Below, in pieces: positions 12,398-63,481 of a stretch of DNA of 64,000 nucleotides. Each line of letters starts with the position of its first letter. Positions within the stretch are counted from its first letter, which is position 1. Source of the stretch: Candidatus Omnitrophota bacterium (GTDB lineage: Bacteria; Omnitrophota; Gorgyraeia; Tantalellales; Tantalellaceae). The notes beneath the pieces were generated by a model. It made no database searches. It saw only the letters and a program-made list of their open reading frames with translations, and was not told the DNA's origin. Position numbers and translations under genes: made by a program. The DNA lies in the NCBI GenBank assembly GCA_015231405.1, contig JADGBR010000006.1:40218-104217 (forward strand), given 5' to 3'.

Positions 12398-12502
12398 TCG
12401 GGAGGTATTATATAGGGTCAAACGACATGGGTCAAGCGTCATGGGAGATTCCCTCTTTTGGGGGGATTGAGGAGTTGATAAAAGTTGAGGAAAAGCTTTG
12501 TG

Positions 12503-12657
12503 GGCGTGAAGGAGATGGGGTTCTTCGTACGGCACTTTGCTTGTCCAAACATTCAAAGTAGCCTTGTGCGTGGACCTTGTAAACATTACAATGAAGGCCT
12601 CGAGCTGAACTAGAAGTTTGCAAAGTGCCGGTAGAAGGTTCACATTTCCTTCACGCC
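12503..12657. other. Nested inverted repeats in the ~280-bp leader upstream of the helicase (candidate structured RNA or regulatory element)
   Basis: Outer pair ggcgtgaaggagatg / catttccttcacgcc (14/15). Inner pair ggcactttg / caaagtgcc. Confidence 0.4.
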
Positions 12658-12682
12658 ATCGGCAAAATCGCACAATATTATT

Positions 12683-15711: not shown

Positions 15712-15831
15712 ATGACCCTTCTCCTTTCGCCCCCCTTGTCGCCGAACGATCCGGGGGTGACTTCTCTCTATGGAATAACAAATTTTTCGCGTCACGGGGC
15801 TATTCCGCCCCGGACGGAGGAACTTCCGACC

Positions 15832-25545: not shown

Positions 25546-25744
25546 GTTATCCTTTAGAATCCAGAATTCAGAATCCAGAATCCAGAATTCGTCATACCAG
25601 AACGGAAGCATATCATCAATTGCTTCATGGTATCTCTTCCAAATATCACATTAACGATCCATATTTTAAGCATTAAATACCTTTCACGCTCCGTCTTCCG
25701 TGATTCTGGCTTTGGGATCTTATCTTCATTATCCCTAACCAACA

Positions 25745-35200: not shown

Positions 35201-35737
35201 CATCACCTTGATCTTAAGATCGATGGCGTCCATGCTCAACGTTTTTTGGACTTCCGCGATCTCCGGAAGCAGCTTCTGGGCTCCTTCGCTCAGCCCCTGT
35301 ACGACTTTTTTGTAGGGGGAGAGCATACTGTCCTGCATCTGGTCCGACGCGTATTCGCAGGCGCAGGCGAGGATGATCAGCTTAATGGACTGCTGGGCGA
35401 AACCCAGCACAAGATTGACTTTCTGATACGTGTCAAACCCGAGCTTTATAGTGGATTTAATAAGGTTTTTCTGCAAGAGGTCCCTCATCCTCTTTTCGAG
35501 AGCGTCGAGCTCGTCATAGGCCTTGCCAAGGGACTCTACCATGCCAGGATAATTCTTCAGGAATTCATCCATACGGACAAGGGCGTCGTGGACTATCTTG
35601 TATTTCGCCTCGGTCTCGCGTATCTCGTTCTGGAGGTAATAAGCATCCTCCGCTGCGAACGCGTCAGGGGCTGTTCCCGGCATTGACGACAAAACCATAG
35701 AAAAGGACAAAATCGCTCTGACTGTTTTTCTGATCAT
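32249..35737 (-). CDS. Giant secreted paralog A: signal peptide, KE-rich coiled coil, conserved C-terminal module of about 350 aa including an NTF2-like domain
   Basis: 1162 aa. Signal peptide MIRKTVRAILSFSMVLSSMPGTAPDAFAAED. The C-terminal block (…LISRDFLGNKIFLEEGIRFDFDMFDDIRLTIFIDRIE…MIFLLEDGKMKIYNLKGNLIYATLSPEIASSSGL…) is shared with paralogs B and C. Confidence 0.7.
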   Translation of the reverse strand: MIRKTVRAILSFSMVLSSMPGTAPDAFAAEDAYYLQNEIRETEAKYKIVHDALVRMDEFLKNYPGMVESLGKAYDELDALEKRMRDLLQKNLIKSTIKLGFDTYQKVNLVLGFAQQSIKLIILACACEYASDQMQDSMLSPYKKVVQGLSEGAQKLLPEIAEVQKTLSMDAIDLKIKVMREGENPDDLGETGLIYRKFYYVLEAIENAKKKIYELRKNLDRTKADIDSERPRVAEEDDRLGKRLEELKKRLSAAEIEMAAKKDGEINSAGKEKGKINITPAPAHVKDEAERQALIASYQTALYNIEAAGRKKFEEIGAELNKEAKASFKGGNHNPLEGKSSSYALPELLAPQVIRGMGPQELTQEMNFYGVIIKVNDDLLPVIRRYPVEYDNFVSSLKGEATPVMNALAGLGVSPGSYNVEYLTASASSQSISLNKIIARIPEENDVYKKNITAMRSEFDNKVSKARGFVQRYSTGAADVVNAAIFAVNKGKAVIVEAKAAGFEDSASAYRHLAKLRKQVAEMFDSGADGAKVKAFLEEERKKFAVLGEPASRAGHLAALALNTRWQFEEKVNSDPDLGLVRVIAEGYPEQGVINPENKYGEDLWDVDMNGNPRVREDIFNKCAEIANASFGVANEINDFISFLPKIDEINLKVRNEFASSDYVTAMGKRAVIASTLNAEADRPILDQWLKAYASPDGGKTPAIYKIFSAETNKAIEASMKIYEARMDAEYAAKRDEEKRKEEEERKKREKEDAEKSGYRVYDVRVNTLTIPNVPGEMVLTSSELRDNTIEITAWLDNLYGIKTVLISEDGSVFKEIPVDRQIRYSFHPVPGKQYIPRIKLKFESDEKVFDLLSNGQTLVYRDIDHTVLIRDAVKELADSYESKNIANVSSLISRDFLGNKIFLEEGIRFDFDMFDDIRLTIFIDRIEKNNALFIAETRWQKTQTPKKTGQQQRTSGSTRMIFLLEDGKMKIYNLKGNLIYATLSPEIASSSGLGEAVVEAIRVDRDTRNPEQPGSGATQETGGVSSVLSVRTGTVTSVDLPMASNMDRGFFFSSGAQADAVGDFVLEFPNLLFTYGNAKIQDVSGTYTFDSLSTAPDITNEVNGPATAGKVYLLVTQEGYYAKMRIDTVNADQDGMNDDDMVTMTFTYAVQTDGSRDLRTN

Positions 35738-35799: not shown

Positions 35800-38700
35800 C
35801 TAAAAATTCCTCGACCCGTCGCGCTGGTACTTGTACCTGACTACCGTCGTGAACGGAAAGGCGGCCGCCGTCATGCTCGTTATCGATATGATCGCGTACT
35901 TCCCGTCGGGAAGCTGGAGCGCGTAAGTATGTCCCGTCGCCGCGTCAAGCCATCCTCCGGCATCATATCCTGAAGACGGCGCTTCGGTGACGCTGTCAAT
36001 AGATACCCCGCCGAGATCCACGATCCCTCCTGACGGATTTACCTTAATAAAAACGTCCTCTCTCCTGAAATCCGAGCTAAAAGCGAAAATATCCCTGGTT
36101 ACAGCGCTACACGCGAAAGTGTAGCCGTCGCAATCATGGAAACCGTATTGCGTAAGCGTTACCGACCCTGACTCCGACCTGGCACTCGTTCCGTCCGCGG
36201 TTTCGGTATCCGTATCGCCCTCAGTTGTCCCCGCTCCGGGCTGGACCGGGTCACGGTCGTCCCTGGCTGCCCTGACCTCATCGATGACCGTAACTCCTAA
36301 CCCGCTCGATTCGGCTATCTCCGGGGAAAGCGTCGCGTATATCAGGTTCCCTTTAAGGTTCTTTAGCTTCATCTTCCCGTCCTCGAACGCGAATATCATA
36401 GAAGTGTTCCCGGAAGTTTTCTGCTCCTGGCCGGTCTTTCTCGGACTTTGCGTTTTGTTCCATTTCGTATCTGCTATGAAATATGCCCCGCCCTTCTCTA
36501 TCCTGTTAATAAAAATGGCAAGCCTTATGCTGGAGAACATATCAAAATCAAACCTCACGCCTTCCTCAAGAAAAGTCCTGTTCCCGAGAAAATCATCGGA
36601 AACATATTCGCTGAAAGCCGATACGTTCTGCTGTTCGTATGCGTTGGCTATCGCCATGATAGAGTCCTGGACCAGCTTTACAAAATCAATATCCTTATAC
36701 GTAATGCTTTGGACATACGGGAAAAGCTCCTGGGTCACTTCTCCGGCTTCACCCATATCTATCCTTAAGATAAAGGTGTACTCGGCGTCAGGCGTCGGGG
36801 CAAAAGAATATTTCACATCTGCGCTATTCTGGATCTTCGTCCAGCTCCTGCCGCCATCCACTGAGATCTCGACGCCCCGTGATCCCGCGACTGTAGAAAG
36901 CTTCCCGGCGACCTCTATCTTACCGTTCTTGAGGTCCATTTTAGAAAGAACCACTGTTTGAGGCATGCTAGCCGCGTTGTATTTGTTAAGCGTCGCGCTC
37001 AGGACTTGTATGGCCTGCCGGCCGGCTTCATCCTCCGCTTCCTTCTTCTTTCTCTCCTCCTCTTCCTTCTTTTTCCTCGCCGCTTCTTCTTCCGCGGCTT
37101 GACGTTCCCGTTCCCATCGTTTTTCTTCATCTATTTTGTCCTGGCCGGACTTTTTGAGCTCATCCTCCACCTCTTTCTCCAGGGCCATCCATCCGCCTAA
37201 GGATTTCTCAATTGCGTCTGTCTTCGCGAACATGGAATATAGCCGGACGAAATGTGAAACATTCTCCTTCTGGAATTTCTCGAGCTGCTTGATCTTTTCC
37301 TGGACATTGTAGCTGTTCTTCTTAATATCGTCGAATTTCTGCTTCGCCTCGCCAAGATATTTATCGGCCAGTGCCGCCCTCTCGTCAAAAGTCTTTTTGA
37401 CAGTTTCGTAGGTCTCCTGGTACACCTTTATCCTGTCGGGTATGGTCAACCATTTATCAAGCGGAGGGTAGTAGGACTGGGCGAAATCGAATCTATACCT
37501 GATATTTGTCCCTATGCCTTTACGCAGGTTGTCCAGCTTAGAGACGAGATCGCTGTATTTCGCCCAGGCCTCTTTCATCTGTTCCAGGTACGCATACCCT
37601 CGCATCTTTTCGGGCAGGGTGTACATAAAAGCTGAGTTATCCGGCATAATGTACATATCGCTCTGCCTTCTTATTTCCTGTTCAAGCGTAAGATCAGAAA
37701 GGCGCAGCATGAACATATCCAGGGTGATATCGTAGTATATCCTGGCATACGCCGAGGCCACCTGGTCCGCGTGCTCTATCGTAAAAAGATCGCTTTCTCT
37801 CTTTGCAACGGCTGCTATGGCCTTATCCATTTCCTCGAGTATATCCTTTCTCTCCATCACCTTCGCCTGCGCCTCGGCGTCGTTATCTCCTCCCCACACC
37901 CTCGGGATACCCACGCTTTCGGCAGGAAGTATCTCCCCTCCCAGTTGCGCGTTATAGAACTGGCTTGTGGAAACGATATTTTCAAATCCCCACGACTGTT
38001 TACCGTCATATGGGATGAGCAGTCTTTTCGGCATTGAGCTCTCAAAACTTTTCGCGATGCTGATAGCGGACGCCGCGTATTGTTCGAATGCTTTTTTTTC
38101 TTTCGCGTAGAGTTCGGCCGCGGCTGACCTGTCTCCGGAAAGGTCCACTTTCATCTGTTGCACCTCTACAAGCTCCCGTGACGCGTCGCCGGGCATCTCG
38201 TATACGAGACCTTCCCGAGCGGCCATGTTCTCGGATATGATGGTGTAGAAATAGGCGGATCCCCATCCATCGGGAAAATTCAATTTGGTAAGGGCCTCCT
38301 GGGATGTCTCGCTGCCGGCTTTCCGATAGGCTTCCACGGCTTTATCGAGCTCTTCCCTGATCTTTTCGGCCTTTTCCCTCATATAAGCCCTCATCTTACT
38401 TCCCCGCTCGAGAGCTTCCGCGACAATGACCTGCTCTTCGGCGCATAGCACCTTGTAATCATTATAGAACTGCCCCTCGACTATACTGCCCCAGGCCCGA
38501 TTCATATAAGGCCCGCGCGCCGCATTGTACACATCGGATAACGCGTTACTCTGGGCGACAAGCGCGTCGTGTTCCGCTCTATTCCTGGCATTTTGGATCC
38601 TTGCCCAGATCGCGGCGAACTGAGGGTCATATTGTGCGGCGAGGGCCGCTAGGATCTCATTCGCCTTCCGTTTGCCGTCATCCATTTTCTTACTGGCCGC

Positions 38701-39966
38701 TTGAAGCGCCGCCTTCCTTTTCGACACGTAATCTTCATACATCCGTTCGATCGCCGCCGTATCATACCCCTCGATCCCGGATTCCTTGATCTCGGTGAAA
38801 GCCGTTTCTAAAGCGCTTAAAATTGAGCCATGATCGAACCCTTCATAAGGGAAAGACTGGACATATTTAGCCATCCTGCCGTTGTATTTATCTTCGTCCG
38901 ATTCCTCCGTCCGGACAAATGTCTCGGCATCCTGTTTTTTGGCGCCATTAATAAGGATATCAAATTCATCTATCATTTTTAGAGCCGGATCAGCTTCCTT
39001 CCTGGCCGCGTCGACGGCCGCGGTGACTCCGGCGGAAGCGCCCCTGGTTTCCTGCACAAGAGCGTCCAGTTTCGACCTCAATTCGTTCTCGATCTGTTTT
39101 TTCTCGAGGATATCGGCCTTCATGCGTGAAAGTTCGGCGATAATGGCGTTTTTCATATTGTCGCCTTCGTTATTTTTACCCTTCAAGTACCACCCGCCGT
39201 AAGCAAGCTGCTCGTCCCATTCCCGCTGAACGTAAGAGGCGATGTCAACGGTCTGGATCCATTCGACAAAGCCTCGGGGATTTTGTTGCGGGTCATGCCC
39301 CGCCAGAACGACCTTCATCTTTCCCTCGAGCGCGGAACTGAAGGCGTACTGAACGACATATTTGCCCAAAGCCTCTACCATCGACTGGGCCAGTTTATAC
39401 CATCCCCAGCCCGGCACGAAATATGTTATTATCTTTTCTCCCACATCCTTACCGAGAGATCTTAAGGCTTCTTCCGGACCGTCCTTTTTCCAGCTGGAAA
39501 TAAAATTATACGTCATCTGGACGCCCTCAAGACCGGCCTTAAAAGCGTTTACCTGGGTATCCAATTTTGCGTTAATATCGATATCGGCTGCCGACCACAA
39601 AGCCCCGACGTTCTTCCCTTCTATGATGGCTTTATGCATCATATCCGGGATCTGAGCCTTAAAAAGTTCCTCACGCAATTTTTTCTTTACATATTCCTCG
39701 AGCTTCTCCTTGGCCGCCTCTTTCAGCCGGTCGGAACTCTCTTCCCAGACTCGCTCTTTCCCTTTTTTGAGGATATAGGCGACTTTGGCTTTGTCGGTGG
39801 GGAGGCTGTTAAGTTCCGCGACGTCGTCGACAAAGTTAGTGAATTGTTTGATAAGTTCTTTAGATACCTTTTCCGTAGCCTCGTCCTCTGAGAAAGCCGG
39901 AGGGCACGCCGAAGTTATCGTGAAACAGAGAATGGTTATTGAGGCAAGTATCTTTTTTATGTTCAT
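35800..39966 (-). CDS. Giant secreted paralog B (1388 aa), same architecture
   Basis: Signal peptide MNIKKILASITILCFTITSA. KE-rich coiled coil (…EEEAARKKKEEEERKKKEAEDEA…). Conserved C-terminal module (…VSDDFLGNRTFLEEGVRFDFDMFSSIRLAIFINRIE…KLKNLKGNLIYATLSPEIAESSGL…). Confidence 0.7.
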   Translation of the reverse strand: MNIKKILASITILCFTITSACPPAFSEDEATEKVSKELIKQFTNFVDDVAELNSLPTDKAKVAYILKKGKERVWEESSDRLKEAAKEKLEEYVKKKLREELFKAQIPDMMHKAIIEGKNVGALWSAADIDINAKLDTQVNAFKAGLEGVQMTYNFISSWKKDGPEEALRSLGKDVGEKIITYFVPGWGWYKLAQSMVEALGKYVVQYAFSSALEGKMKVVLAGHDPQQNPRGFVEWIQTVDIASYVQREWDEQLAYGGWYLKGKNNEGDNMKNAIIAELSRMKADILEKKQIENELRSKLDALVQETRGASAGVTAAVDAARKEADPALKMIDEFDILINGAKKQDAETFVRTEESDEDKYNGRMAKYVQSFPYEGFDHGSILSALETAFTEIKESGIEGYDTAAIERMYEDYVSKRKAALQAASKKMDDGKRKANEILAALAAQYDPQFAAIWARIQNARNRAEHDALVAQSNALSDVYNAARGPYMNRAWGSIVEGQFYNDYKVLCAEEQVIVAEALERGSKMRAYMREKAEKIREELDKAVEAYRKAGSETSQEALTKLNFPDGWGSAYFYTIISENMAAREGLVYEMPGDASRELVEVQQMKVDLSGDRSAAAELYAKEKKAFEQYAASAISIAKSFESSMPKRLLIPYDGKQSWGFENIVSTSQFYNAQLGGEILPAESVGIPRVWGGDNDAEAQAKVMERKDILEEMDKAIAAVAKRESDLFTIEHADQVASAYARIYYDITLDMFMLRLSDLTLEQEIRRQSDMYIMPDNSAFMYTLPEKMRGYAYLEQMKEAWAKYSDLVSKLDNLRKGIGTNIRYRFDFAQSYYPPLDKWLTIPDRIKVYQETYETVKKTFDERAALADKYLGEAKQKFDDIKKNSYNVQEKIKQLEKFQKENVSHFVRLYSMFAKTDAIEKSLGGWMALEKEVEDELKKSGQDKIDEEKRWERERQAAEEEAARKKKEEEERKKKEAEDEAGRQAIQVLSATLNKYNAASMPQTVVLSKMDLKNGKIEVAGKLSTVAGSRGVEISVDGGRSWTKIQNSADVKYSFAPTPDAEYTFILRIDMGEAGEVTQELFPYVQSITYKDIDFVKLVQDSIMAIANAYEQQNVSAFSEYVSDDFLGNRTFLEEGVRFDFDMFSSIRLAIFINRIEKGGAYFIADTKWNKTQSPRKTGQEQKTSGNTSMIFAFEDGKMKLKNLKGNLIYATLSPEIAESSGLGVTVIDEVRAARDDRDPVQPGAGTTEGDTDTETADGTSARSESGSVTLTQYGFHDCDGYTFACSAVTRDIFAFSSDFRREDVFIKVNPSGGIVDLGGVSIDSVTEAPSSGYDAGGWLDAATGHTYALQLPDGKYAIISITSMTAAAFPFTTVVRYKYQRDGSRNF

Positions 39967-42282: not shown

Positions 42283-45200
42283 TTATTGCGTCCTAACGTT
42301 CCTCGTCCCATCGGTCTGGAGCGCGTACTGGAATTCCAGCGTATCAGGCGGACCGAGAGTCCGGTTGGTCACCGTCATCTTCCCGTATTTTGCATCTGCG
42401 GTCTTAAAAGCGTAAACTTTTCCCACATCCATATTGTCAACAAAAGGGGCGTATCCAGATGACGGGGCTTCATTGAGCGCCCCGAACGTGGAAGTTGTAA
42501 TTTCCTGTATCTCGGACGCGCCTACGGCGATAAATCGCATCCCCATAACATAATTGAAATCACCGGTATCCACGTCAGCCTGAGCCCCGGACGAGAAACT
42601 AAATCCCTTTACATTGCTAGGAGGGGGACCGGGTTCGGATGTGACAGACCCTGTCCGGACGGATATCACGGCGGTCGAAGTCGTCCCTCCGGCCTCAACG
42701 GTCTCGCTGGATCCGGGCTGTACGGGATCACGGGTTTCCTGAGCCTGCTCTATCTGCTCGACGACGGCTTGCGCCAACCCGCTGGATTCGGCTATTTCCG
42801 GGGAAAGAGTAGCGTATATTAGGTTCCCTTTAAGATTGTAGATCTTCATCCTTCCGTCCTCCAGAACAAAGATCATCTCAGTTTTTCCTGTCGTCCTTTG
42901 CTGTTCCCCGGTCTGTCTCGGTATCTGGGTCTTGTTCCACGTTGTCTCGGCAACGTATTGCCCGTTACGTATCTCTATCCTGTTGATGAATATGGTGAGC
43001 CTTATTTCAGTGAACATATCGAAGTCGAACCTCACTCCTTCTTCCAGAAAAGTCCGGTTGCCTATGAAATCCCTCGATATATTCTCTTCGAATAAAGAAA
43101 CGTTCTGGGCTTCATAGGCGTCGGCTATCTTCTTAGCGGCGTCGACGAGAAGCTGGCTATAGTCGATGTTCCTATATATCAACCCGTTGATGTTCTCGAA
43201 CGGCTCTAGAGTGACCTCATCGAAATCCACGGTCTTGATCTTGAAAACGACCTGATACAATTGCTCGACCGCCGGCATGAAGGAAAAGGATAACATCTGG
43301 TTCTTCTGGCATTCGTTCCATATCCGTCCGCCGTCGGTCGAAACGAGTATCTTATCTATCCTGTCCAGCGTGTTCAGCCTGGCTGTAACTTCGATAGCGT
43401 TATTCTTCAGGTCAGTATTCGTGAGGATAACGTCACCGGAAGCGTTTTTTAGGCTCACTGTATTTACGCGCGCGTCATAAAGCTGATAAAAAGAAAACCC
43501 TTCACCCTCCCCCACTGGAACGGTTTGAGAGAAAGACGCCGTTTTCTGTCCGGGCTGGCCTCCCTGTCCAGGCTGTCCCCCTTGCCCCGGCTGCCCGCCC
43601 TGCCCTGGCTGCCCACCCTGCCCTGGTTGTCCTCCCTGTCCTGGTTGTCCTCCCTGTCCTGGTTGTCCACCCTGTCCCGGTTGTCCACCCTGTCCCGGCT
43701 GGCCTCCCTGTCCAGGCTGGCCACCCTGCCCCGGTTGTCCGCCGGGCCCGCTTGTCTTAGTGGTTTTAAGAAACTCCGTGCGCTCTTCCAGGATCTTATC
43801 GAGTTCATTCATTATGGAGACATATCTTTTGCCCAGCGAATGATCGAAAGGAGCCGGGTTTTTCTCATAGGCTTTGTCCACGGCATATGGCTGGCTCGTA
43901 TCACCGCTTGAAATTATGGCACCGGCTATTGCCCCAATGACCGGCATCATCTGCTGCATGAACTCGATATCACTCGCGTCATATTTGACCTTCGGAACTT
44001 CCTCCTCGAACTTCGCGACCGTGCTAGCCTGGATCACGATCTCCGTATCGCCCGAAGGAGCGAAAAAATTGTCTTCCGCGGCGTATTCAACTCCGGGCAA
44101 GGTAAGGATCTTCTCGAGTACCTCGTTAACTCCGGAGGCGCTATTCTTAATGAACTTGTAGCCCGGATATTGCTGCCACATAGTTCTTATCTCGTTGGCG
44201 AAAGTCCCCGTATCGTTCTTAGTCATATAGTGTTTGTAGGGTTTATCCATCAGTATCAAATTGCCGTCTTTCTTGAAAAGGATCTCGTACTCCCCATAGC
44301 TGAACTCCCTAAGAACTCCTTTTTCCTTCTGGTCCCGGAAGAACTCCTCTACCGCCGCTTTTTTAGAGTTGATCCAGTCCGCCCCTTCCTGACGTTTCGC
44401 CATTTCCTCGTCGGCATATTTACGTATCTCGTCGAACCTGGCCTGTGACCTGTTGATGAGATCCTGAAGTTTCTCTATGGCATTGCCCAGGTCCGCCATC
44501 TCTTCCATTTGCCGGTCGAAATTTTCGGAAACACCGAGCACCTTCATTTCGGTGAGTTCACTGTCCGACGGTTTAGGTATATCCTTAAGTTCCGCCGCGG
44601 CTCTCTGCCAATCCGGGTAGGAACCCTGGACATTCGCCATTCGGTACCCACCTTCCCTGCCTATCTCCCCGGCGAAATCGAAGTTTACAGTAGCGGCCTT
44701 CTGGTTCATTTCAGAATATAGCTCGGGAACGCTTTTCGGGTCGTTAAAAGTACCTACTCCCCCATACTCGTAAGATTTCGTTTTTTCTACCGCCGCGTTA
44801 ATGGCGTTCATGTTATCCGAAAAATCTTCATCGGCCTGGGTCCTCGTCCCTGTCCCCAGGATACTATTGACGGGAATTATTTTGGCTGACGCCTGCACAA
44901 GCCCTGTATATTCATACCATTGCCTTTGCCTTACCCTCTTAAGGTCGTTAAAAGTATTGACGAGCCCTGATATCTCGGAATTGGTCTTAACGATCACGGC
45001 TTCGGTCGTATTCCTGAGCGTCTGGCTAACGTCCCCGGCCAGATAATATGCGCTCTGAAGAATGGATAACTCGCCGCCGAGGGCGCTAGTCTCCTTTCTT
45101 ATCGCTTCCATCCGCGTTGAGTTGCCGCTCATTGCCGAGACAAGGCTGCTCCTTAAGGCTTCGTCATAGGAATCGTAATACTGTCTCTGCAATTTCGCGT

Positions 45201-46809
45201 TATCCGCCTCACGGTTCTTATATTCCTCGTTTAGCGCCCCTATCCTCTCATTAATTGGACCTTGCGCGTTCTCATACGCTTTCGCGAGCTTTTTAGGAAG
45301 TTCTTCGTTATAGTAGCCGTTCATCCCTTTCCTGGCGGCGCCCTCCCATTCGGATAGGAGGGTATACGCTTCGGAAAATTTGCCCTTATTCAAAGCTTCC
45401 AGCACCTTATCGTAAAGATCATCACCAGAAGTTCCCCAGTCCTTGAACGGCGCGAGAACTGGAACGAATGCGGCGTTATAATAGCCCATCTCGGGAGCGC
45501 TTATCGTTTTCTCTTCTTCCTCATAAACGGTCGCGGGATCGGTTATGACAGCTTTTTCTTTAGCTCCGAGGGCTTTTTCATAATCCTTTTCCAGCGCCCA
45601 CCACAGCTTCAGCTCGGACTTTAGCGACGCGGAAAGATCGGCCTCTCCGATAAGATTGGAAGCGCTGGACGCGGTCACAAGCGAACTTTTCCAGGTATTA
45701 ATGGCGTTCTGAACTTCGTTCATCCTCTTAAGGTTGGCGATAAGCGTCCCGGCCCCGACGCGCGCGGCCGGACTTTTCGCGAGGAGCTCCTTGTATTTAG
45801 GCAGCTGTTTACGGTATTCTTTTTTGGCGTTGAATTCGCTGAGAAGTTGCGGGATATTGTTCGAAAAGGCTCTTAAACGGTAGGCGAACTTCTTGAATTC
45901 AGCCATCTCATGCCCGGCCCGCTGCTCCGCCCACCGCTCGGTCACCTGGAGGTTAACGTCCTTAAGGAGTTTCATTATCCATGTGCGCGCCTTGTTCCGA
46001 TATTCCACGGAAAGCGCCATAGTCTCGGCGCTTTCGGTCGTGTCCTCTCCCGAGCCTGCCGACATCAGGTCCCTGGCCCAATCCCCCCAACTTTGTTCGG
46101 GCCATTCCTCCCCGAGAACGGTCGTTACATAAGATTTGACCATATCGCGGACCTCGGCGTTGGTCACGATGTATTTGTTAAAGAAATAGTCCGCGGTCTT
46201 TTCGTTGACATCTATCAGCTTAGGAGAGCCGCCCTTGGGATCGGACGTACCCAAAAGACGCCTGTCGTTCTCAACTTTATTGTAAAGCGTCTCTACCTGG
46301 AGCTCGGCGCCCGACTCTACTACCAGCTTATGGGACTCGTAGGCCATCTTAACGGCGGCCCACGCCACTTTTATAACGGGATGATCTATTTCCCCGACGA
46401 CAACGTCCACTGTCAGGAAAAGTGCTTCGTCATATTTCCCTTCTCCGAGCATGGTACCGAGCTTTTGGACGTTCTCTATGATATCCAGGATCTTGTCTAT
46501 TTTGTCCTTGATCTGCTTAGTGTATGCGTCGGTATCGTCGATCTGCCCTTTCCATAGTTTCTCGTATTCAAAGAGAGATTCCCATCCAAGCTCGTTGACT
46601 TTGTCCTGGCCCAGGGCCTTCAATCCTTCCGTCGCTCCGTCCTCCGACATCATGGCTTCCGCCACATCAAGGCCGAGACTTACGCCGGTACCCAATTCAT
46701 CCGGGTCGGTAAATTTCCCGCCCTTGGACCCTTTTTCCTCGGCACTCGCGATATTGAAGTTGAGGACCATTAATGACAACAGGATGAAAACTGATATTTT
46801 ATTAGCCAT
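42283..46809 (-). CDS. Giant secreted paralog C (1508 aa) with an internal GGQPGQ tandem repeat
   Basis: Signal peptide MANKISVFILLSLMVLNFNIASA. Conserved C-terminal module (…ISRDFIGNRTFLEEGVRFDFDMFTEIRLTIFINRIE…KIYNLKGNLIYATLSPEIAESSGL…). Confidence 0.7.
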   Translation of the reverse strand: MANKISVFILLSLMVLNFNIASAEEKGSKGGKFTDPDELGTGVSLGLDVAEAMMSEDGATEGLKALGQDKVNELGWESLFEYEKLWKGQIDDTDAYTKQIKDKIDKILDIIENVQKLGTMLGEGKYDEALFLTVDVVVGEIDHPVIKVAWAAVKMAYESHKLVVESGAELQVETLYNKVENDRRLLGTSDPKGGSPKLIDVNEKTADYFFNKYIVTNAEVRDMVKSYVTTVLGEEWPEQSWGDWARDLMSAGSGEDTTESAETMALSVEYRNKARTWIMKLLKDVNLQVTERWAEQRAGHEMAEFKKFAYRLRAFSNNIPQLLSEFNAKKEYRKQLPKYKELLAKSPAARVGAGTLIANLKRMNEVQNAINTWKSSLVTASSASNLIGEADLSASLKSELKLWWALEKDYEKALGAKEKAVITDPATVYEEEEKTISAPEMGYYNAAFVPVLAPFKDWGTSGDDLYDKVLEALNKGKFSEAYTLLSEWEGAARKGMNGYYNEELPKKLAKAYENAQGPINERIGALNEEYKNREADNAKLQRQYYDSYDEALRSSLVSAMSGNSTRMEAIRKETSALGGELSILQSAYYLAGDVSQTLRNTTEAVIVKTNSEISGLVNTFNDLKRVRQRQWYEYTGLVQASAKIIPVNSILGTGTRTQADEDFSDNMNAINAAVEKTKSYEYGGVGTFNDPKSVPELYSEMNQKAATVNFDFAGEIGREGGYRMANVQGSYPDWQRAAAELKDIPKPSDSELTEMKVLGVSENFDRQMEEMADLGNAIEKLQDLINRSQARFDEIRKYADEEMAKRQEGADWINSKKAAVEEFFRDQKEKGVLREFSYGEYEILFKKDGNLILMDKPYKHYMTKNDTGTFANEIRTMWQQYPGYKFIKNSASGVNEVLEKILTLPGVEYAAEDNFFAPSGDTEIVIQASTVAKFEEEVPKVKYDASDIEFMQQMMPVIGAIAGAIISSGDTSQPYAVDKAYEKNPAPFDHSLGKRYVSIMNELDKILEERTEFLKTTKTSGPGGQPGQGGQPGQGGQPGQGGQPGQGGQPGQGGQPGQGGQPGQGGQPGQGGQPGQGGQPGQGGQPGQKTASFSQTVPVGEGEGFSFYQLYDARVNTVSLKNASGDVILTNTDLKNNAIEVTARLNTLDRIDKILVSTDGGRIWNECQKNQMLSFSFMPAVEQLYQVVFKIKTVDFDEVTLEPFENINGLIYRNIDYSQLLVDAAKKIADAYEAQNVSLFEENISRDFIGNRTFLEEGVRFDFDMFTEIRLTIFINRIEIRNGQYVAETTWNKTQIPRQTGEQQRTTGKTEMIFVLEDGRMKIYNLKGNLIYATLSPEIAESSGLAQAVVEQIEQAQETRDPVQPGSSETVEAGGTTSTAVISVRTGSVTSEPGPPPSNVKGFSFSSGAQADVDTGDFNYVMGMRFIAVGASEIQEITTSTFGALNEAPSSGYAPFVDNMDVGKVYAFKTADAKYGKMTVTNRTLGPPDTLEFQYALQTDGTRNVRTQ
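43549..43756 (-). repeat. In-frame 18-bp tandem repeat encoding (GGQPGQ), about 11 copies, within paralog C
   Basis: DNA shows near-identical cctggctgcccaccctgc-type units. The protein reads SGPGGQPGQGGQPGQ…GGQPGQK. Confidence 0.85.
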
Positions 46810-59113: not shown

Positions 59114-62100
59114 TTATGCCGAAACTACGACTTTTCTGAGGTTCTCCCACTCCTGCATAGCCCCCCGGCTCATCTCTTCATAAGCTGAGGGAATTACCAT
59201 CAACCTGGAAGGGGCGGTCGTCAATCCAACGAACCATCCGTTCAAAAGCCGCGATAAGGATATAGCTTGTCCCTCACCCGGGATATCGGGGATAAAGATC
59301 GACAGGTTTTCATACAATTCATCTCTCAGTATCTCTGAAATGCCGTTTAACCCTTCCTTGTCAGGGATATCGGTACAAATAAGCATGTAATCATTCTCCT
59401 TCAATGTACCGAAGTACATATCCTTTACTATCCTGACCCTTCCTTCGATAGTTGCTGGATCATATCCCAAAGGCCCTATGTGTGTATATTTTCCGGCTAT
59501 GTTATTAAGTTCATCCTCGCTTACGGTCCTTATGGCCACATTTTCAGGAACACCCAGCGCCCTGGACAGCTGACCGCCGCGCTCGAGGATAGAAAAGAAC
59601 GATAGGTCTTCATTATTCGCCCCGGTAACCACTATTTCGAACCTGGTCCCTTTACCGGCGAGCGATCCCATTTTTTTGAGAACATGCAGGAGATCAGGAG
59701 CATTCCTGAGCACCTGAGAAGGAACTGCGATAATGTATTTCGACGCCTTCTTTTCCGTCACCGGACAGCCTTTAAGCAATTCATTTAACCGCCCCCATAA
59801 ACTATCCGAGATCCCTTCGCTTTCACTGATCTTTCTGGAAAGGCTTTTATAGGCCGCTTTTACGCGCTCATCGTTTTCCAGGACCTTTCTCCTCTCTATC
59901 GCCCTCAGGTACTCACCGTCGTCGAGGATGTCTTTTACAGACTCTATACCCAGGCTTTTCGCTAGAAGGTCCCTGTCATCGCTCAATGTGTACTTGAAAT
60001 CAATGGTGCCGTCGTCACGGACGGCATAGTCCGTTTTAAGGAACTTGATCTTCATGTCTTTTTTCGCCTCGATAAGCCCTTCCCTCATATGTGTGTTCAG
60101 TATAACTGTAGCTCCGATCTCCTCCGTCAAATATCTCGCGATCGCCGCCTGAAGCGCCGACAGCTCCCAGTAATCGCTGCCGTGCAGTTCATCCATAAGT
60201 ATGAGCGAATTTTTCGTGGCGTTATCTATGAGGCCCGCGAGCCGCTGGGCGACCCTGTTAAAATATGACTGACCGCCGCTCATTATCTCCTCGGCGCCGA
60301 AAAAGGTAAGGACCTTATCATATCCCGGCAAAGAACAGGTCGCAGGAACGGGATAACCCTTCCTGGCTAAAAGCACTATCGCCTGGATAGTCCTTATAGC
60401 TGCTGTCTTACCGCTCTTATTCGGGCCCATGATGGCGAATTGATCCAGAGCCGTTCCCTGGACCATATCTATACTTTTAGCCGACTCGTAGAACGGGGAT
60501 AAAGCGTTCCTTATTTCCATGGTCCCGCCTGCTTGCGCAAGATGAAGATCGTTATTCTCTTTCATCGTTAACGCCACTCCCATGATGCTGTCAAGCGCGG
60601 GGAGAAAAGCCTTTTCCATGTTCCCAAGGCCGGTTAATAGTTTTTTGACGCAGTTCTTTTCCATGGCCATTATCTCTTTAAATCTTTGTTCCCTCGGAGC
60701 CTCTTTTTCCGATTCGGGCCTTGGGTCATTCTCTTTAAGATGGAGGATGATCCCGTCTTCGGAGTACAGTTTCCTTCTTTCACCTTTACTCCCTTCTTCC
60801 GGGATATTCTTTTCGATGGATTTGATCGTATTATCGATGTCTCCTTCAGGCAAAAGGCCTTCGCCTTTGAGTTCACTCAATAATTTCACGATCCGTCTCA
60901 ACCGTTTATTCACTCTTTTCACAAGTTTGTCCAGATATTCATCGGCCATTTTAGGCGTTTTCCATATTTCAGGCGTAGGATCGATAAAATTGAATTCGCC
61001 GAAAATGATCTCCCTGTCGTTTTCAAGTGTTCCTCTTTTTATCCACCGTTCTAAAAGGTCTCTGTATGGGAGTAGGTCACCTGTATATCCATTATAAAAG
61101 ATGTTTTTTTCCGAGAATAAGGCTTTCCTGGCCCTTTTGAATATTTCATGGTCCTGCAATTCGTCATAAGCGGTTTTACCGGAACTTTTTCCGCGAGGCT
61201 TATCTCCCGTCGACCCTGCCCCGGGATCCGGCATTTCACTTCCGGTTACCGCCCTGTAATATTCCGCGCTCCAGCCTATGACCTTTTCCGGGAAACTATA
61301 CTTACGCAATGTCTTTACGGCATAGCTGTCGTCGGCGATCCCTTCTTCAAAAGTCCTTTCACCTTCGGGCCCTGGCATGATACGCTTAAAAGAAAGGTCC
61401 GGATAAGCCGCCTTCAATATGTGCATGACCTCTTTTAAATGTGTCGTGTAAACCACGGTAGCTCCGGTTTTCATGAGGTCCTCTATCAAAACGGATGTAA
61501 TAGCCGTAAGGTCCTTATATTCCGAACCCATATGAGCTTCGTCGATAATGACAAGATCCCCGGGCCCGGCGACGCCTATAAGGTCTCCAAGCCTTCTGAC
61601 AAGGGCCGTATGAGTGCTCTCTCCTTCCTTAATATTCTCATAGGACGGGGTATCTACGTAGACGTTCCTGAAAACGCTGAGCTCCGCGTATTCGGCCGGC
61701 ACGGGAAGGCCCATCTGGTTATACAGCGCGCATATCGCTATCATCTCGGCTGTGGTGCTTTTACCGATCTCGTTCTCCCCGGTAATCCCAAGGAATTTCC
61801 TCCTGCCGGTAATATCTATGTCGACAAGGTCCATGTTCTCTTTCTTTCCGGCCGCTGGGTTCCACGCCTTATCGAGCTTCACTCTGCCCAGGACATCCGG
61901 GACTTTCGCGATCGAATAACCGCCCTGTTTCATCATCCGCGCCCCGCCGGACGCGAAAAGCATTTCGTTCACGAGGTTATGCGTATTAGCGATCGAAAAT
62001 AATGAGTCGTTATCAGCGTTAAATACATCCTCGAACGATCGCTGTAAAGGACGAAATTCATTAACGCGTTCCGGCAGGGTTACCCCTCTCATATCGTGGA

Positions 62101-63481
62101 AGTCCCGGTTAAAACCGGTCATGTACTGCCAGAATCGCGACATTGAAAATTCCGAGACCTCCGCCTCGGTCGGTCGGAGTCTCGTCAAATCCCTTTCCAG
62201 AAGGGAGGCCATTCTTTTCTCGGTTCTCGCGTGAAATAACCTGTCCTGCATCGCGCCCCATTCGCTGGAGATGATATCGAAACGGTCAAAAGGATATTTT
62301 TGTGTATAGGCGATCATATTTTTAACTTCCGGGTCTTCCAGAAAAGAATTTATCCAACCATATAATCCGAAATCGCCTTTTATACCCGTTGCGTCCATGA
62401 TGGCTTTAATTTCCAAGGCATATCCGGCAAGGAAGGATAATCTTATGATAGCTTTGGTAAGGTAATGATCGCGGGTATTAAATATGTATTCGGGTTCGCC
62501 TTCCACCAACATGGCTGTTATTCTGGGGTCCATGTCTTTACGCTGTTTACAAAACCTGAAAAACCAAATATCTTGCATGTAATCATGCGCCGTATTGGCC
62601 ATACCTACTAAAGTCCCGGTAAGCCTTTCATAGGTATCTTCATCCAGTTCATTGATGGCTTTCACCTGCCTCTGAGATCTCTCAATTTTATTTTTATCTC
62701 TTAATGGATTATTCCACCTCGGGCGGAACATATGCTCAGTGAACTGTCGACGCGCTTTCCGGTTCATTCCGCTAAAAGTAAAATACCGGCTTACCTTATC
62801 CAACTCTTTCACAGCCCCATCATCGGAGAACTCTTCCACCCCGGCATAAAGGCTATCCATATGAAGTCGCCCATAAGTGCCCCAGCTCATCACATCTCTT
62901 AGAGCCGTACGCACCCTTTCCTTTTCCACCCGGATCCCGAGATCATCCGCCGCTTTATATTGGTCATCACCTCTCAGATCTTCTTTTCCCCTCTTCAGTA
63001 GCGCCCTGGGATTTATCGGCATCGGAAGACCCGCGTCATAACAGTCATGCGCGATAAGGCGCCTGTAAGGGACCTCTTCCTGCTGATCACCGTTATTATC
63101 CCGTTCACTCGTCTTCAATTCCGCTTCCCGGACCAACAGGTCGGCCTCGATCACCCCATTCAAGAACGAGTCGTCACCTCCCGTCCCTGTTGAGATATAA
63201 CATCCCGATGGAAGCTTCAAATACTGATTACCTGACACATCCAATGCCCTGGCGTATCTGTCAGACCGGGATGCGTCCCGTATAAGCCCCGCCCGCCTGT
63301 ATATCTCGGCGGCGATTTCCCCTCTTCTTGCCGTATCATCGGTAAAAGTCCAGACGCTTAAAAGTGCGGCGGACTTCCCCCACCCCTCATCCCGGCAAGA
63401 TATGACATCACCCGAAAGAAAACAGATCATAAGAAAAATTTTTTGCGCTGCGAATTTTTTAAGCATAAATAGACTTATCAT
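59114..63481 (-). CDS. Large protein (1455 aa) with two tandem MutS-family (domain V-like) ABC ATPase domains and an N-terminal hydrophobic segment
   Basis: First P-loop …LGITGENEIGKSTTAEM… with …LVIIDEAHMGSEYKD…TTH. Second P-loop …FAIMGPNKSGKTAAIRT… with …LILMDELHGSDYWE…NTH. No Smr or mismatch-binding domain was recognised. Confidence 0.6.
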   Translation of the reverse strand: MISLFMLKKFAAQKIFLMICFLSGDVISCRDEGWGKSAALLSVWTFTDDTARRGEIAAEIYRRAGLIRDASRSDRYARALDVSGNQYLKLPSGCYISTGTGGDDSFLNGVIEADLLVREAELKTSERDNNGDQQEEVPYRRLIAHDCYDAGLPMPINPRALLKRGKEDLRGDDQYKAADDLGIRVEKERVRTALRDVMSWGTYGRLHMDSLYAGVEEFSDDGAVKELDKVSRYFTFSGMNRKARRQFTEHMFRPRWNNPLRDKNKIERSQRQVKAINELDEDTYERLTGTLVGMANTAHDYMQDIWFFRFCKQRKDMDPRITAMLVEGEPEYIFNTRDHYLTKAIIRLSFLAGYALEIKAIMDATGIKGDFGLYGWINSFLEDPEVKNMIAYTQKYPFDRFDIISSEWGAMQDRLFHARTEKRMASLLERDLTRLRPTEAEVSEFSMSRFWQYMTGFNRDFHDMRGVTLPERVNEFRPLQRSFEDVFNADNDSLFSIANTHNLVNEMLFASGGARMMKQGGYSIAKVPDVLGRVKLDKAWNPAAGKKENMDLVDIDITGRRKFLGITGENEIGKSTTAEMIAICALYNQMGLPVPAEYAELSVFRNVYVDTPSYENIKEGESTHTALVRRLGDLIGVAGPGDLVIIDEAHMGSEYKDLTAITSVLIEDLMKTGATVVYTTHLKEVMHILKAAYPDLSFKRIMPGPEGERTFEEGIADDSYAVKTLRKYSFPEKVIGWSAEYYRAVTGSEMPDPGAGSTGDKPRGKSSGKTAYDELQDHEIFKRARKALFSEKNIFYNGYTGDLLPYRDLLERWIKRGTLENDREIIFGEFNFIDPTPEIWKTPKMADEYLDKLVKRVNKRLRRIVKLLSELKGEGLLPEGDIDNTIKSIEKNIPEEGSKGERRKLYSEDGIILHLKENDPRPESEKEAPREQRFKEIMAMEKNCVKKLLTGLGNMEKAFLPALDSIMGVALTMKENNDLHLAQAGGTMEIRNALSPFYESAKSIDMVQGTALDQFAIMGPNKSGKTAAIRTIQAIVLLARKGYPVPATCSLPGYDKVLTFFGAEEIMSGGQSYFNRVAQRLAGLIDNATKNSLILMDELHGSDYWELSALQAAIARYLTEEIGATVILNTHMREGLIEAKKDMKIKFLKTDYAVRDDGTIDFKYTLSDDRDLLAKSLGIESVKDILDDGEYLRAIERRKVLENDERVKAAYKSLSRKISESEGISDSLWGRLNELLKGCPVTEKKASKYIIAVPSQVLRNAPDLLHVLKKMGSLAGKGTRFEIVVTGANNEDLSFFSILERGGQLSRALGVPENVAIRTVSEDELNNIAGKYTHIGPLGYDPATIEGRVRIVKDMYFGTLKENDYMLICTDIPDKEGLNGISEILRDELYENLSIFIPDIPGEGQAISLSRLLNGWFVGLTTAPSRLMVIPSAYEEMSRGAMQEWENLRKVVVSA

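What the first reader, a model, noticed from the sequence alone, without database searches (positions are those of the whole stretch)
59114..63481. 1455-aa protein with two tandem MutS-type ATPase domains and no recognisable mismatch-binding or Smr domain
Two complete P-loop/Walker B/switch-H modules typical of MutS domain V are present (GENEIGKST…IIDEAHMGS…TTH and GPNKSGKTA…LMDELHGSD…NTH). They are separated by about 450 aa. A long N-terminal region of about 550 aa begins with a hydrophobic, signal-like segment. Canonical MutS or MutS2 has one ATPase per chain. A covalently fused tandem-ATPase MutS-like protein next to the leu operon is unusual. It could represent a novel DNA-surveillance or defence ATPase, or a fused pseudo-dimer.
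Basis: partly seen in the sequence, partly recalled or inferred. Interest (0 to 1): 0.55.

Follow-up and report, generated by a model that had tools for sequence, protein, structure and literature searches.

The report
Single-chain double MutS ATPase, Omnitrophota
This is a real 1455-residue protein from an Omnitrophota bacterium that carries two different MutS-type ATPase engines in one chain, belongs to an apparently undescribed family whose members are mostly embedded in that phylum's very long proteins, and has no known target.

Summary
ORF 59114-63481 (-) encodes 1455 aa with two complete MutS domain V ATPases (Pfam E 4.5e-42; Walker A at aa 568 and 1019). It has no MutS I/II/IV or Smr domain. 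It is not a frameshift artefact: an independent metagenome contig carries the same colinear ORF (77% identity), and every region has dN/dS of 0.06-0.31.

It is not a one-off. An exhaustive HMMER search found at least 41 clusters with the same two-ATPase layout, spaced about 370-570 aa. Most are Omnitrophota proteins of 1,000 to over 7,000 aa. In about 29 closer relatives, position 1 matches the query's module 1 and position 2 its module 2, and both catalytic sites are conserved. The region before ATPase 1 is a divergent MutS core domain; the linker is helical and otherwise unassignable.

The N-terminal (~aa 36-130) and C-terminal (~aa 1235-1455) modules also bracket unrelated cores in other Omnitrophota proteins.

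Most likely it is a single-chain "heterodimer" MutS2-like ATP-driven clamp without mismatch-recognition or nuclease parts. Its substrate is unknown. A defence role is not supported: the context is housekeeping, neighbours are not conserved and no viral copies were found.

The parts
59114..63481 (-). Whole ORF, 1455 aa plus stop (NCBI model HQL30_04560 starts 5 codons later, 1450 aa)
   Evidence: Colinear 77%-identical ORF in an independent metagenome contig. dN/dS 0.17 overall.
63395..63481 (-). aa 1-29: hydrophobic, signal-peptide- or anchor-like N-terminus (MISLFMLKKFAAQKIFLMICFLSGDVISC; 'VISC' fits a lipobox pattern)
   Evidence: Relatives have an equivalent segment ending in [ND][IV]x[WF]A. 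Its function is unresolved.
63092..63376 (-). aa 36-130: N-terminal 'bookend' module (…LSVWTFT…EIAAEIYRRAGLI…RY…LPSGCY…), shared with other Omnitrophota proteins that lack MutS
   Evidence: phmmer hits to P0140, P0177 and P0180; alignment; no Pfam or PDB match.
61847..62764 (-). aa 240-545: divergent MutS core/lever (domain III-like) region of half 1, all-helical in the model
   Evidence: hhalign vs MutS1 domain III-IV: 99.6%, E 2e-24. After trimming the ATPase junction it is still 96%, E 4.5e-9 over 125 columns. The AF2 model is helical with pLDDT mostly above 85. Foldseek hits are all MutS/MutS2.
61232..61846 (-). aa 546-750: MutS domain V ATPase module 1 (Walker A 61754-61780, Walker B 61532-61555, TTH 61436-61447), MutS2-like, with C-terminal helix-turn-helix
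   Evidence: dN/dS 0.06.
60467..61231 (-). aa 751-1005: helical inter-ATPase linker. Only its last ~80 aa resemble the MutS lever/ATPase junction.
   Evidence: not significant vs the MutS core after trimming. dN/dS 0.20.
59882..60466 (-). aa 1006-1200: MutS domain V ATPase module 2 (Walker A 60401-60427, Walker B 60182-60205, NTH 60086-60097), with the family-specific motif DELHGSDYWELSALQ
   Evidence: dN/dS 0.09.
59117..59779 (-). aa 1235-1455: C-terminal 'bookend' module. It has an alpha/beta (Rossmann-like) fold and always sits at the extreme C-terminus, ending …W..L..(S/A)A.
   Evidence: Shared with P0045, P0078, P0090, P0095, P0115, P0116, P0121, P0136, P0140, P0144, P0153, P0177 and P0180. 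AF2 pLDDT 81.5, pTM 0.83. No significant PDB relative by fold or sequence.

Best explanation
The gene encodes a genuine single-chain MutS-family protein. It has two differentiated halves. Half 1 is a divergent MutS core/lever region plus a MutS2-like domain V ATPase. Half 2 is a helical linker plus a second domain V ATPase. The most likely mechanism (inferred) is that the two ATPase domains pair head-to-tail within one chain, as the two subunits of every solved MutS, MSH or MutS2 dimer do. That would create two composite nucleotide sites, both catalytically competent. ATP binding and hydrolysis would then open and close the helical arms as a clamp or motor, as in MutS2 and the MutS sliding clamp. 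The protein has no mismatch-reading domain I and no Smr nuclease, so it is not a mismatch-repair initiator. Its target (DNA, ribosome/RNA, or another macromolecule) is unknown. An N-terminal signal- or anchor-like segment plus N-module, and a C-terminal alpha/beta module, flank the core. These are Omnitrophota-specific 'bookends' that also flank unrelated enzymatic cores, so they probably serve localisation, anchoring or assembly and not the ATPase chemistry. In most relatives the same tandem core is one cassette inside very long multidomain proteins. The query is a minimal, stand-alone version.
For: Shown: two MutS_V domains with intact Walker A, Walker B and His motifs. The ORF is real and under purifying selection throughout. 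At least 41 clusters at 50% identity share the tandem layout, with spacing of 370-570 aa. In about 29 closer relatives the first module best matches the query's module 1 and the second its module 2, and the positions form largely separate clades, 26 of 34 each. Across 34 tandem proteins, Walker A Lys is kept in 33/34 and 33/34, Walker B Asp in 34/34 and 34/34, catalytic Glu in 30/34 and 33/34, and switch His in 33/34 and 33/34. The pre-ATPase-1 region is homologous to MutS domain III even after junction trimming. The AF2 model of aa 256-1455 has pTM 0.68 with a confident core, and its top 50 PDB matches are all MutS, MutSalpha/beta or MutS2, aligned over 460-680 columns. All 11 species-genome loci carry the tandem inside ORFs of 1,016 to over 6,800 aa, mostly in Omnitrophota MAGs. 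A paralog (HQL30_03000) lies in the same MAG. The bookend modules occur on glutamate-dehydrogenase-like, DnaJ and HATPase_c proteins. Inferred from established knowledge: MutS-family ATPase domains work as dimers with composite sites.
Against: Intramolecular pairing was not observed directly, because no coordinates or PAE were returned. Pairing between chains is equally compatible with the sequence data. The linker shows no significant similarity to the MutS core once the junction is removed, so 'two core+ATPase halves' holds strictly only for half 1. No clamp (domain IV) beta-structure is evident, and the corresponding stretches have low confidence. Net charges give no obvious DNA-binding surface beyond one basic helix at aa 851-900. 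The signal-like N-terminus predicts export of an ATP-dependent protein, which does not fit a cytoplasmic clamp. No functional data exist for any family member.
Confidence: 0.6

Rival explanations
1. The two modules do not pair with each other. Instead the protein dimerises or oligomerises, with each module pairing with its counterpart in another chain to give a four-ATPase assembly, and the linker acts only as a spacer.
For: MutS proteins can form tetramers (established knowledge). The halves are very divergent: only aa 482-684 and 954-1134 align, at 27% identity. No structural read-out of intrachain contacts was available.
Against: The tightly conserved order and spacing of a differentiated pair is what heterodimer-like partners would show. 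The trans-acting S-x-F motif is conserved unequally in the two modules, as in asymmetric heterodimers. A pTM of 0.68 for a 1200-residue single chain argues for a defined intrachain arrangement.
Confidence: 0.2
2. It is an exported or injected effector. The N-terminal segment is a true Sec or lipoprotein signal, and the tandem MutS motor acts outside the producer, for example in a prey or host cell of a predatory or parasitic Omnitrophota bacterium.
For: The N-terminus has signal-peptide features (positive n-region, short h-region, small residue at -1) in the query and many relatives. The small family members have no other TM-like segment. Published work reports that 94% of Omnitrophota long proteins carry a signal peptide or TM helices, and proposes predation-related roles (10.64898/2026.06.07.730766 and 10.1101/2023.11.21.568195).
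Against: All co-occurring domains (MutS_V, PfkB, HATPase_c, SAM methyltransferases, GDH-like, DnaJ) need cytoplasmic cofactors. No secretion genes flank this gene. The query's own hydrophobic segment is weak, below the 19-residue TM threshold. No dedicated signal-peptide predictor was available.
Confidence: 0.15
3. It is the ATPase of an anti-phage defence or DNA-surveillance system.
For: Weak PADLOC hits (mad8 E 1.4e-10, AbiLi 2e-4), all limited to the P-loop region. The MutS fold is associated with DNA transactions.
Against: The PADLOC match covers only about 45 residues. The neighbours are opp-type ABC, leuCDB, asd and truA. No partner gene is conserved across 11 loci. There are no relatives on viral contigs. 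GC content is uniform with the flanks. Relatives are cassettes inside multidomain giants, not small operonic ATPases.
Confidence: 0.05
4. It is an artefact: two adjacent MutS-like genes merged by a sequencing or assembly frameshift.
For: None beyond the source being a MAG.
Against: An independent JGI metagenome contig has the same continuous ORF with a single 1-aa gap over 1357 aa. The linker has dN/dS 0.20. Dozens of relatives from different assemblies have the same fused layout.
Confidence: 0.01

Closest known systems
MutS2 (TIGR01069; e.g. B. subtilis or T. maritima MutS2, PDB 9kce, 7qv3)
   Same: It lacks mismatch-binding domain I and connector domain II. It has a core/lever region followed by a domain V ATPase. 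Module 1 scores higher against a MutS2 ATPase profile than a MutS1 profile in 30 of 34 family members. The best PDB sequence hit for module 1 is MutS2, and the best TM-score to a target is 0.56 for T. maritima MutS2.
   Different: It has one chain with two different ATPases instead of a homodimer. There is no Smr nuclease and no KOW domain. It scores 136.9 bits against a TIGR01069 cut-off of 400. It carries extra Omnitrophota-specific N- and C-terminal modules.
Eukaryotic MSH heterodimers (MSH2-MSH6, MSH2-MSH3)
   Same: Two differentiated MutS-type ATPases presumably work as an asymmetric pair. Both sites retain catalytic residues, and the trans-acting motifs are unequally conserved. These chains are among the top structural matches.
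   Different: Here the partners are covalently fused. Domains I, II and a recognisable domain IV are absent, so mismatch recognition is not expected.
Bacteroidota tandem MutS-like proteins (~830-900 aa; P0098 Sediminibacterium, P0102 Bacteroidales, P0159 Muribaculaceae), annotated hypothetical or 'DNA mismatch repair ATPase MutS'
   Same: They have two MutS_V ATPases in one chain about 420-450 aa apart, and no domain I or Smr.
   Different: They are near-symmetric whole-unit duplications, with halves 31-45% identical over ~430 aa (E down to 1e-127). The query's halves align only over the ATPase plus a short junction (27%). They have no bookend modules, and both of their modules resemble the query's module 1. 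They probably arose by an independent fusion or duplication.
Single-chain tandem-NBD ABC-type ATPases (UvrA, ABCE1/Rli1, ABC-F)
   Same: The working principle is the same: two ABC-superfamily nucleotide-binding domains in one polypeptide form an internal head-to-tail dimer that drives a clamp or switch (established knowledge; PMC6486640 for UvrA, listed).
   Different: They belong to a different branch of the superfamily. The query has no LSGGQ signature and no Pfam ABC_tran match above threshold (E 0.077). The resemblance is in how it works, not in membership.
KamC, the lysine 5,6-aminomutase reactivase ATPase (NF052383)
   Same: It is a MutS_V-type ATPase used outside DNA repair. It matches module 1 with E 3e-32.
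   Different: The score is 112 bits against a cut-off of 300. KamC has a single ATPase and sits in a different genomic context (kam operon).

Membership tests
MutS superfamily (domain V ATPase, Pfam PF00488) | Domain V match above the Pfam gathering score | tested here: met
   144.6 bits against 30.2, in two stretches
MutS superfamily (domain V ATPase, Pfam PF00488) | Walker A GxxxxGK[ST], Walker B hhhhDE, S-x-F motif and T-H switch histidine | tested here: met
   Present in both modules of the query and conserved family-wide. Module 1 of the query has S-T-H instead of S-T-F.
MutS superfamily (domain V ATPase, Pfam PF00488) | ATPase domains act as a dimer with composite sites | not testable with these tools
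   Model coordinates and PAE were not returned; this is inferred only.
MutS1 (mismatch-repair MutS; TIGR01070 / NF003810) | Mismatch-binding domain I (PF01624), connector II (PF05188) and clamp IV (PF05190) | tested here: not met
   No Pfam hit to any of them even at E <= 1-10.
MutS1 (mismatch-repair MutS; TIGR01070 / NF003810) | Full-length equivalog score | tested here: not met
   114.7 and 121 bits against cut-offs of 641.7 and 480.
MutS2 (TIGR01069) | C-terminal Smr nuclease domain (PF01713), with KOW | tested here: not met
   Absent in Pfam and NCBIfam scans. The C-terminal module has an unrelated alpha/beta fold.
MutS2 (TIGR01069) | Equivalog score at or above 400 bits; one ATPase per chain | tested here: not met
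   136.9 bits; two ATPases per chain.
MutS2 (TIGR01069) | Core/lever region N-terminal to the ATPase, without domains I and II | tested here: met
   hhalign 96-99.6% probability to the MutS core. The fold matches MutS2 over ~430-530 columns.
KamC reactivase ATPase (NF052383) | Equivalog score at or above 300 bits | tested here: not met
   112.1 bits.
Known anti-phage defence ATPases (PADLOC-DB) | Full-length match to a defence-system model, plus system partner genes nearby | tested here: not met
   Only a 45-residue P-loop match to mad8. The neighbours are housekeeping genes, and none is conserved.
Omnitrophota tandem-MutS family (defined here) | ATP1-type then ATP2-type MutS_V modules ~370-570 aa apart, with DELHG[ST]D[YN][WF]EL[SA]A in module 2 | tested here: met
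Omnitrophota long/giant proteins (10.64898/2026.06.07.730766; 10.1101/2023.11.21.568195) | Multi-thousand-residue length with TM helices or a signal peptide, in Omnitrophota | tested here: inconclusive
   The query is only 1455 aa, but it comes from an Omnitrophota MAG and has a signal-like N-terminus. Its relatives of 2,000 to over 7,000 aa fit this class. These papers do not mention MutS.

The most novel reading that the evidence does not exclude
The tandem MutS core, together with the conserved N-terminal signal/N-module and the C-terminal alpha/beta module, marks a class of Omnitrophota proteins that are exported or delivered into another cell. There a MutS-derived, single-chain ATP-driven clamp would act on the victim's DNA or ribosomes. 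The 'bookends' would be the recognition elements of a so-far-unknown sorting or delivery route for ATP-dependent cargo.
Probability: 0.1. Interest if true: 0.85.

Novelty: new variant of a known kind. Interest (0 to 1): 0.55.

Why it matters
All characterised MutS-family proteins work as dimers of separate chains. A conserved, covalently fused and differentiated pair would be a natural single-chain 'heterodimer'. That would be convenient for dissecting the asymmetric ATPase cycle, because each site can be mutated independently in one polypeptide. It also shows that the MutS clamp or motor was recruited for something other than mismatch repair or the known MutS2 roles. The same cassette recurs inside the very long proteins of Omnitrophota, whose functions are an open question. 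A 1455-aa stand-alone version is therefore an experimentally tractable entry point. The co-occurring N- and C-terminal modules that bracket unrelated enzymes hint at a shared localisation or assembly system in this phylum.

Tried and rejected
(1) Frameshift or mis-merge artefact: rejected.
(2) Ordinary MutS2: rejected, because there is no Smr domain, the score is below the cut-off and there are two ATPases.
(3) Degenerate second ATPase: rejected.
(4) Defence system: no support.
(5) Word-indexed homolog searches with the family alignment and the C-terminal module alignment returned essentially nothing useful. The first was swamped by canonical MutS, and the index seems not to cover the family. 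The exhaustive HMMER search did the work.
(6) Sequence searches of the N-terminal region, linker and C-terminal region against Pfam and PDB found nothing.
(8) My first hhalign result suggested that the linker is also a MutS core domain. A control with the ATPase junction trimmed removed that signal, so I withdrew the claim for the linker.
(9) 'Type B' C-termini (P0046-like) are not homologous to the query's C-terminal module.
(10) Promoter and terminator scans were not above shuffled expectation.
(11) Two metagenome scans for further close orthologs found none, so conservation of the N-terminus among orthologs could not be checked.
(12) Literature searches found no description of tandem MutS_V proteins.


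Full report
OBSERVATION. The ORF lies exactly where stated: 59114..63481 on the minus strand, 1455 aa, ATG start. It translates without internal stops. Pfam finds MutS domain V in two stretches (E 4.5e-42, 144.6 bits against a gathering score of 30.2). NCBIfam matches mutS2, mutS1 and KamC models, each in two stretches and each far below its curated cut-off. The quoted motifs are present: GENEIGKST at aa 568, LVIIDEAH at 643 and TTH at 679; GPNKSGKTA at aa 1019, LILMDELH at 1093 and NTH at 1129. The Walker A motifs are 451 aa apart, and the two modules are 30% identical (E 4e-14). No MutS I, II or IV, Smr or KOW domain is detected. The neighbours are an OppF/DppF-type ABC ATPase upstream and leuC, leuD, leuB, asd and truA downstream. 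GC content is uniform with the flanks. The source is a Candidatus Omnitrophica MAG, locus HQL30_04560, annotated as hypothetical.

NOT AN ARTEFACT. A JGI metagenome contig carries a 5'-truncated ortholog (P0002). It is 77% identical and colinear over 1357 aa with a single one-residue gap, spanning both ATPases, the linker and the C-terminus. Nei-Gojobori dN/dS between the two genes is 0.06 for ATPase 1 and 0.09 for ATPase 2. It is 0.20 for the linker, 0.18-0.31 for the N-terminal regions and 0.20 for the C-terminal region. The whole fused frame is therefore a maintained coding sequence.

A FAMILY, NOT A SINGLETON. An exhaustive HMMER search with aa 256-1455 against 1.84 billion cluster representatives gave 33 proteins at E <= 1e-30. 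I mapped query segments onto the top 150 hits and counted module pairs. Forty-one proteins have two MutS_V modules 370-570 aa apart. Many of them are very long, for example 3486, 3547, 5257, 5939, 6037, 7381 and 7439 aa. In about 29 closer relatives (P0045-P0079 and P0083) the first module best matches the query's module 1 and the second its module 2. Pfam sees only MutS_V twice in the small members, plus HATPase_c, PfkB kinase or SAM-methyltransferase domains in larger ones.

A scan of GTDB species genomes used the family-specific module-2 motifs [IL][ML]DELHG[ST]D and TV[IV][LF]NTH[MV]R. It returned 11 loci, mostly Candidatus Omnitrophota MAGs, with a few labelled Planctomycetales, Planctomycetia or Elusimicrobia. 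All 11 carry the ATP1-ATP2 tandem inside ORFs of 1,016 to over 6,800 aa, and five of these ORFs run off both ends of the locus. P0046 (1375 aa) is a paralog in the same MAG, HQL30_03000.

BOTH SITES LOOK ACTIVE, AND THE POSITIONS ARE DIFFERENTIATED. Catalytic residues are conserved across 34 tandem proteins:
- Walker A Lys: 33/34 in module 1 and 33/34 in module 2.
- Walker B Asp: 34/34 and 34/34.
- Catalytic Glu: 30/34 and 33/34.
- Switch His: 33/34 and 33/34.
- Ser of the trans-acting S-x-F motif: 18/34 in module 1 (Gly in 15) and 30/34 in module 2.

Module 1 scores higher against a MutS2-ATPase profile than a MutS1 profile in 30 of 34 proteins (111 against 86 bits), while module 2 is equidistant. 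Module-1 and module-2 sequences form largely separate NJ clades (26 of 34 each) and are as distant from each other as from canonical MutS. This is the pattern expected of an old, asymmetric partner pair, not a recent duplication.

By contrast, a group of ~830-900-aa tandem MutS proteins in Bacteroidota (Sediminibacterium, Bacteroidales, Muribaculaceae) are clean whole-unit duplications. Their halves are 31-45% identical over ~430 aa. The query's halves align only over aa 482-684 against 954-1134, at 27% identity. Tandem MutS has therefore arisen at least twice.

THE NON-ATPASE PARTS. Single-sequence searches of aa 1-550, 690-1010 and 1186-1455 against Pfam and PDB found nothing. Profile-profile comparison showed that the 300 aa before ATPase 1 are homologous to the MutS core. 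Probability is 99.6% with E 2e-24 against MutS1 domains III-IV, and 99.2% with E 6e-20 against the MutS2 N-terminal region. I removed the 75 residues next to the ATPase from all profiles as a control. The half-1 signal persisted against MutS1 domain III (96%, E 4.5e-9, 125 columns), equal to the MutS2-vs-MutS1 positive control, and reversed-sequence controls scored 0.2%. The linker signal disappeared (E 0.03-0.13). So aa ~240-545 is a divergent domain III. Query aa 246-280, FTEHMFRPRWNNPLRDKNKIERSQ…, aligns with the conserved start of that domain. The linker can only be described as helical, with a MutS-like junction in its last ~80 residues.

An AlphaFold2 model of aa 256-1455 used 26 family sequences. 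It has pLDDT 74.7 and pTM 0.68, and most of aa 256-1215 scores above 80. Its top 50 PDB matches are all MutS, MutSalpha/beta or MutS2 chains, aligned over 460-680 columns with TM up to 0.56 to T. maritima MutS2. No beta-rich clamp (domain IV) is evident, and the stretches where it would lie have low confidence.

BOOKEND MODULES. The C-terminal ~220-250 aa match the extreme C-termini of proteins that have no MutS module: P0090, P0095, P0115, P0116, P0121, P0136, P0140, P0144, P0153, P0177 and P0180. They also match the C-termini of the tandem-MutS proteins P0045 and P0078. The MutS-less proteins include a HATPase_c protein, a glutamate-dehydrogenase-like protein and a DnaJ-domain protein. Named members are Candidatus Omnitrophota. 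The module models well on its own (pLDDT 81.5, pTM 0.83) as an alternating beta/alpha fold. It has no significant relative in the PDB by fold (best E 3e-3, TM ~0.3) or by profile.

The N-terminal ~130 aa match P0140, P0177 and P0180. They align with P0045, P0078 and P0121 through the motifs [FW]A[QA]…(S/T)L..WT…RE..A..YR…RY..LL…LPSG.Y. The N- and C-modules thus co-occur around unrelated cores. Some relatives, such as P0046, carry a different, non-homologous C-terminal module. No other ORF in the window carries either module.

THE N-TERMINUS IS UNRESOLVED. The query starts MISLFMLKKFAAQKIFLMICFLSGDVISC. It has a positive n-region, a short h-region and a small residue before the polar stretch, and 'VISC' fits a lipobox pattern. 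Relatives have a stronger hydrophobic segment ending in [ND][IV]x[WF]A. In the small family members this is the only TM-like segment, yet every recognisable domain downstream needs ATP or SAM. The segment is therefore either an anchor that leaves the bulk of the protein in the cytoplasm, or a signal on proteins that act outside the producer. Published surveys report that 94% of Omnitrophota long proteins have a signal peptide or TM helices, and they discuss predation-related roles (10.64898/2026.06.07.730766 and 10.1101/2023.11.21.568195). These papers do not mention MutS.

CONTEXT. No gene neighbour is shared among the window and ten related loci at blastp E <= 1e-8. No relatives occur on IMG/VR viral contigs. 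PADLOC gives only a 45-residue P-loop match. Promoter and terminator scans are at background. Adjacency to the leu operon is incidental, and there is no sign of an operon partner or a defence island.

MECHANISM (best estimate, about 0.6). The following are shown: two intact, conserved and differentiated MutS ATPases; a domain III-like region in half 1; and no recognition or nuclease domain. The following are inferred from the dimeric, composite-site architecture of all solved MutS-family proteins. The two modules pair within the chain to form a single-chain 'heterodimer', and nucleotide binding and hydrolysis opens and closes the helical arms as a clamp or motor. That is how MutS2 and the MutS sliding clamp work. 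The substrate is unknown. KamC, matched at E 3e-32 but below its cut-off, is a reminder that MutS_V ATPases also work outside nucleic-acid metabolism. The bookend modules most plausibly serve localisation or assembly. The main rival is pairing between chains (about 0.2). An exported-effector location (about 0.15) is compatible with either pairing mode. Defence (about 0.05) and artefact (about 0.01) are unlikely.

NOVELTY. The protein passes the MutS superfamily test (domain V) but fails the tests for MutS1, MutS2 and KamC membership. No curated Pfam or NCBIfam model covers the tandem architecture, the linker or the bookend modules. Full-text searches found no description of tandem MutS_V proteins. 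I rate it a new variant of a known kind: a conserved, fused and asymmetric MutS pair that recurs as a cassette in Omnitrophota long proteins. Interest is moderate (0.55). The architecture is real, conserved and apparently undescribed, and it offers a tractable handle on both MutS asymmetry and Omnitrophota giant proteins. Its function remains inferred.

Noticed in passing
window 42283-46809 (-), 35800-39966 (-), 32249-35737 (-): Three large ORFs (1508, 1388 and 1162 aa) have signal-peptide-like N-termini, no Pfam match at 1e-5, and similar C-terminal tails (…YALQTDGTRNVRTQ, …YKYQRDGSRNF, …YAVQTDGSRDLRTN). They look like a paralogous cluster of uncharacterised secreted or outer-membrane-type proteins.
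   Followed up: partly
window 18921-22325 (-), 22327-25611 (-), 27189-29885 (-): Two adjacent AcrB-family RND transporter genes (1134 and 1094 aa) lie near an OEP/TolC-like outer-membrane factor (898 aa), forming an efflux cluster.
   Followed up: partly
window 10370-12673 (-): This is a PcrA/UvrD-type helicase whose helicase match starts at about aa 114. The ~110-aa N-terminal extension (GTG start model) contains 'ATLNVWT', reminiscent of the (S/T)L..WT motif of the N-terminal bookend module. It may be chance or an over-extended start.
   Followed up: no
relatives P0045, P0078, P0116, P0121, P0140, P0153, P0177, P0180 (not in window); query aa 36-130 and 1235-1455 = window 63092-63376 and 59117-59779: A conserved N-terminal module and a conserved alpha/beta C-terminal module (ending …AWAVLxAA) co-occur at the two ends of Omnitrophota proteins with unrelated middles (GDH-like, DnaJ, HATPase_c, tandem MutS). 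Neither has a Pfam model, and the C-terminal module has no PDB relative.
   Followed up: partly
relatives P0098, P0102, P0159, P0164 (Bacteroidota; not in window): A separate class of ~830-900-aa tandem MutS proteins is made of two near-identical (core III + ATPase V) units, 31-45% identical between halves. They are mostly annotated as hypothetical.
   Followed up: partly
same MAG, locus HQL30_03000 (P0046; outside the window): A second tandem-MutS paralog (1375 aa) is encoded in the same genome. It is 34-40% identical to the query and has a different, non-homologous C-terminal module.
   Followed up: partly
window 13264-15795 (-): A glycogen/maltodextrin phosphorylase family protein of 843 aa (Pfam Phosphorylase, E = 0). 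This is ordinary.
   Followed up: no
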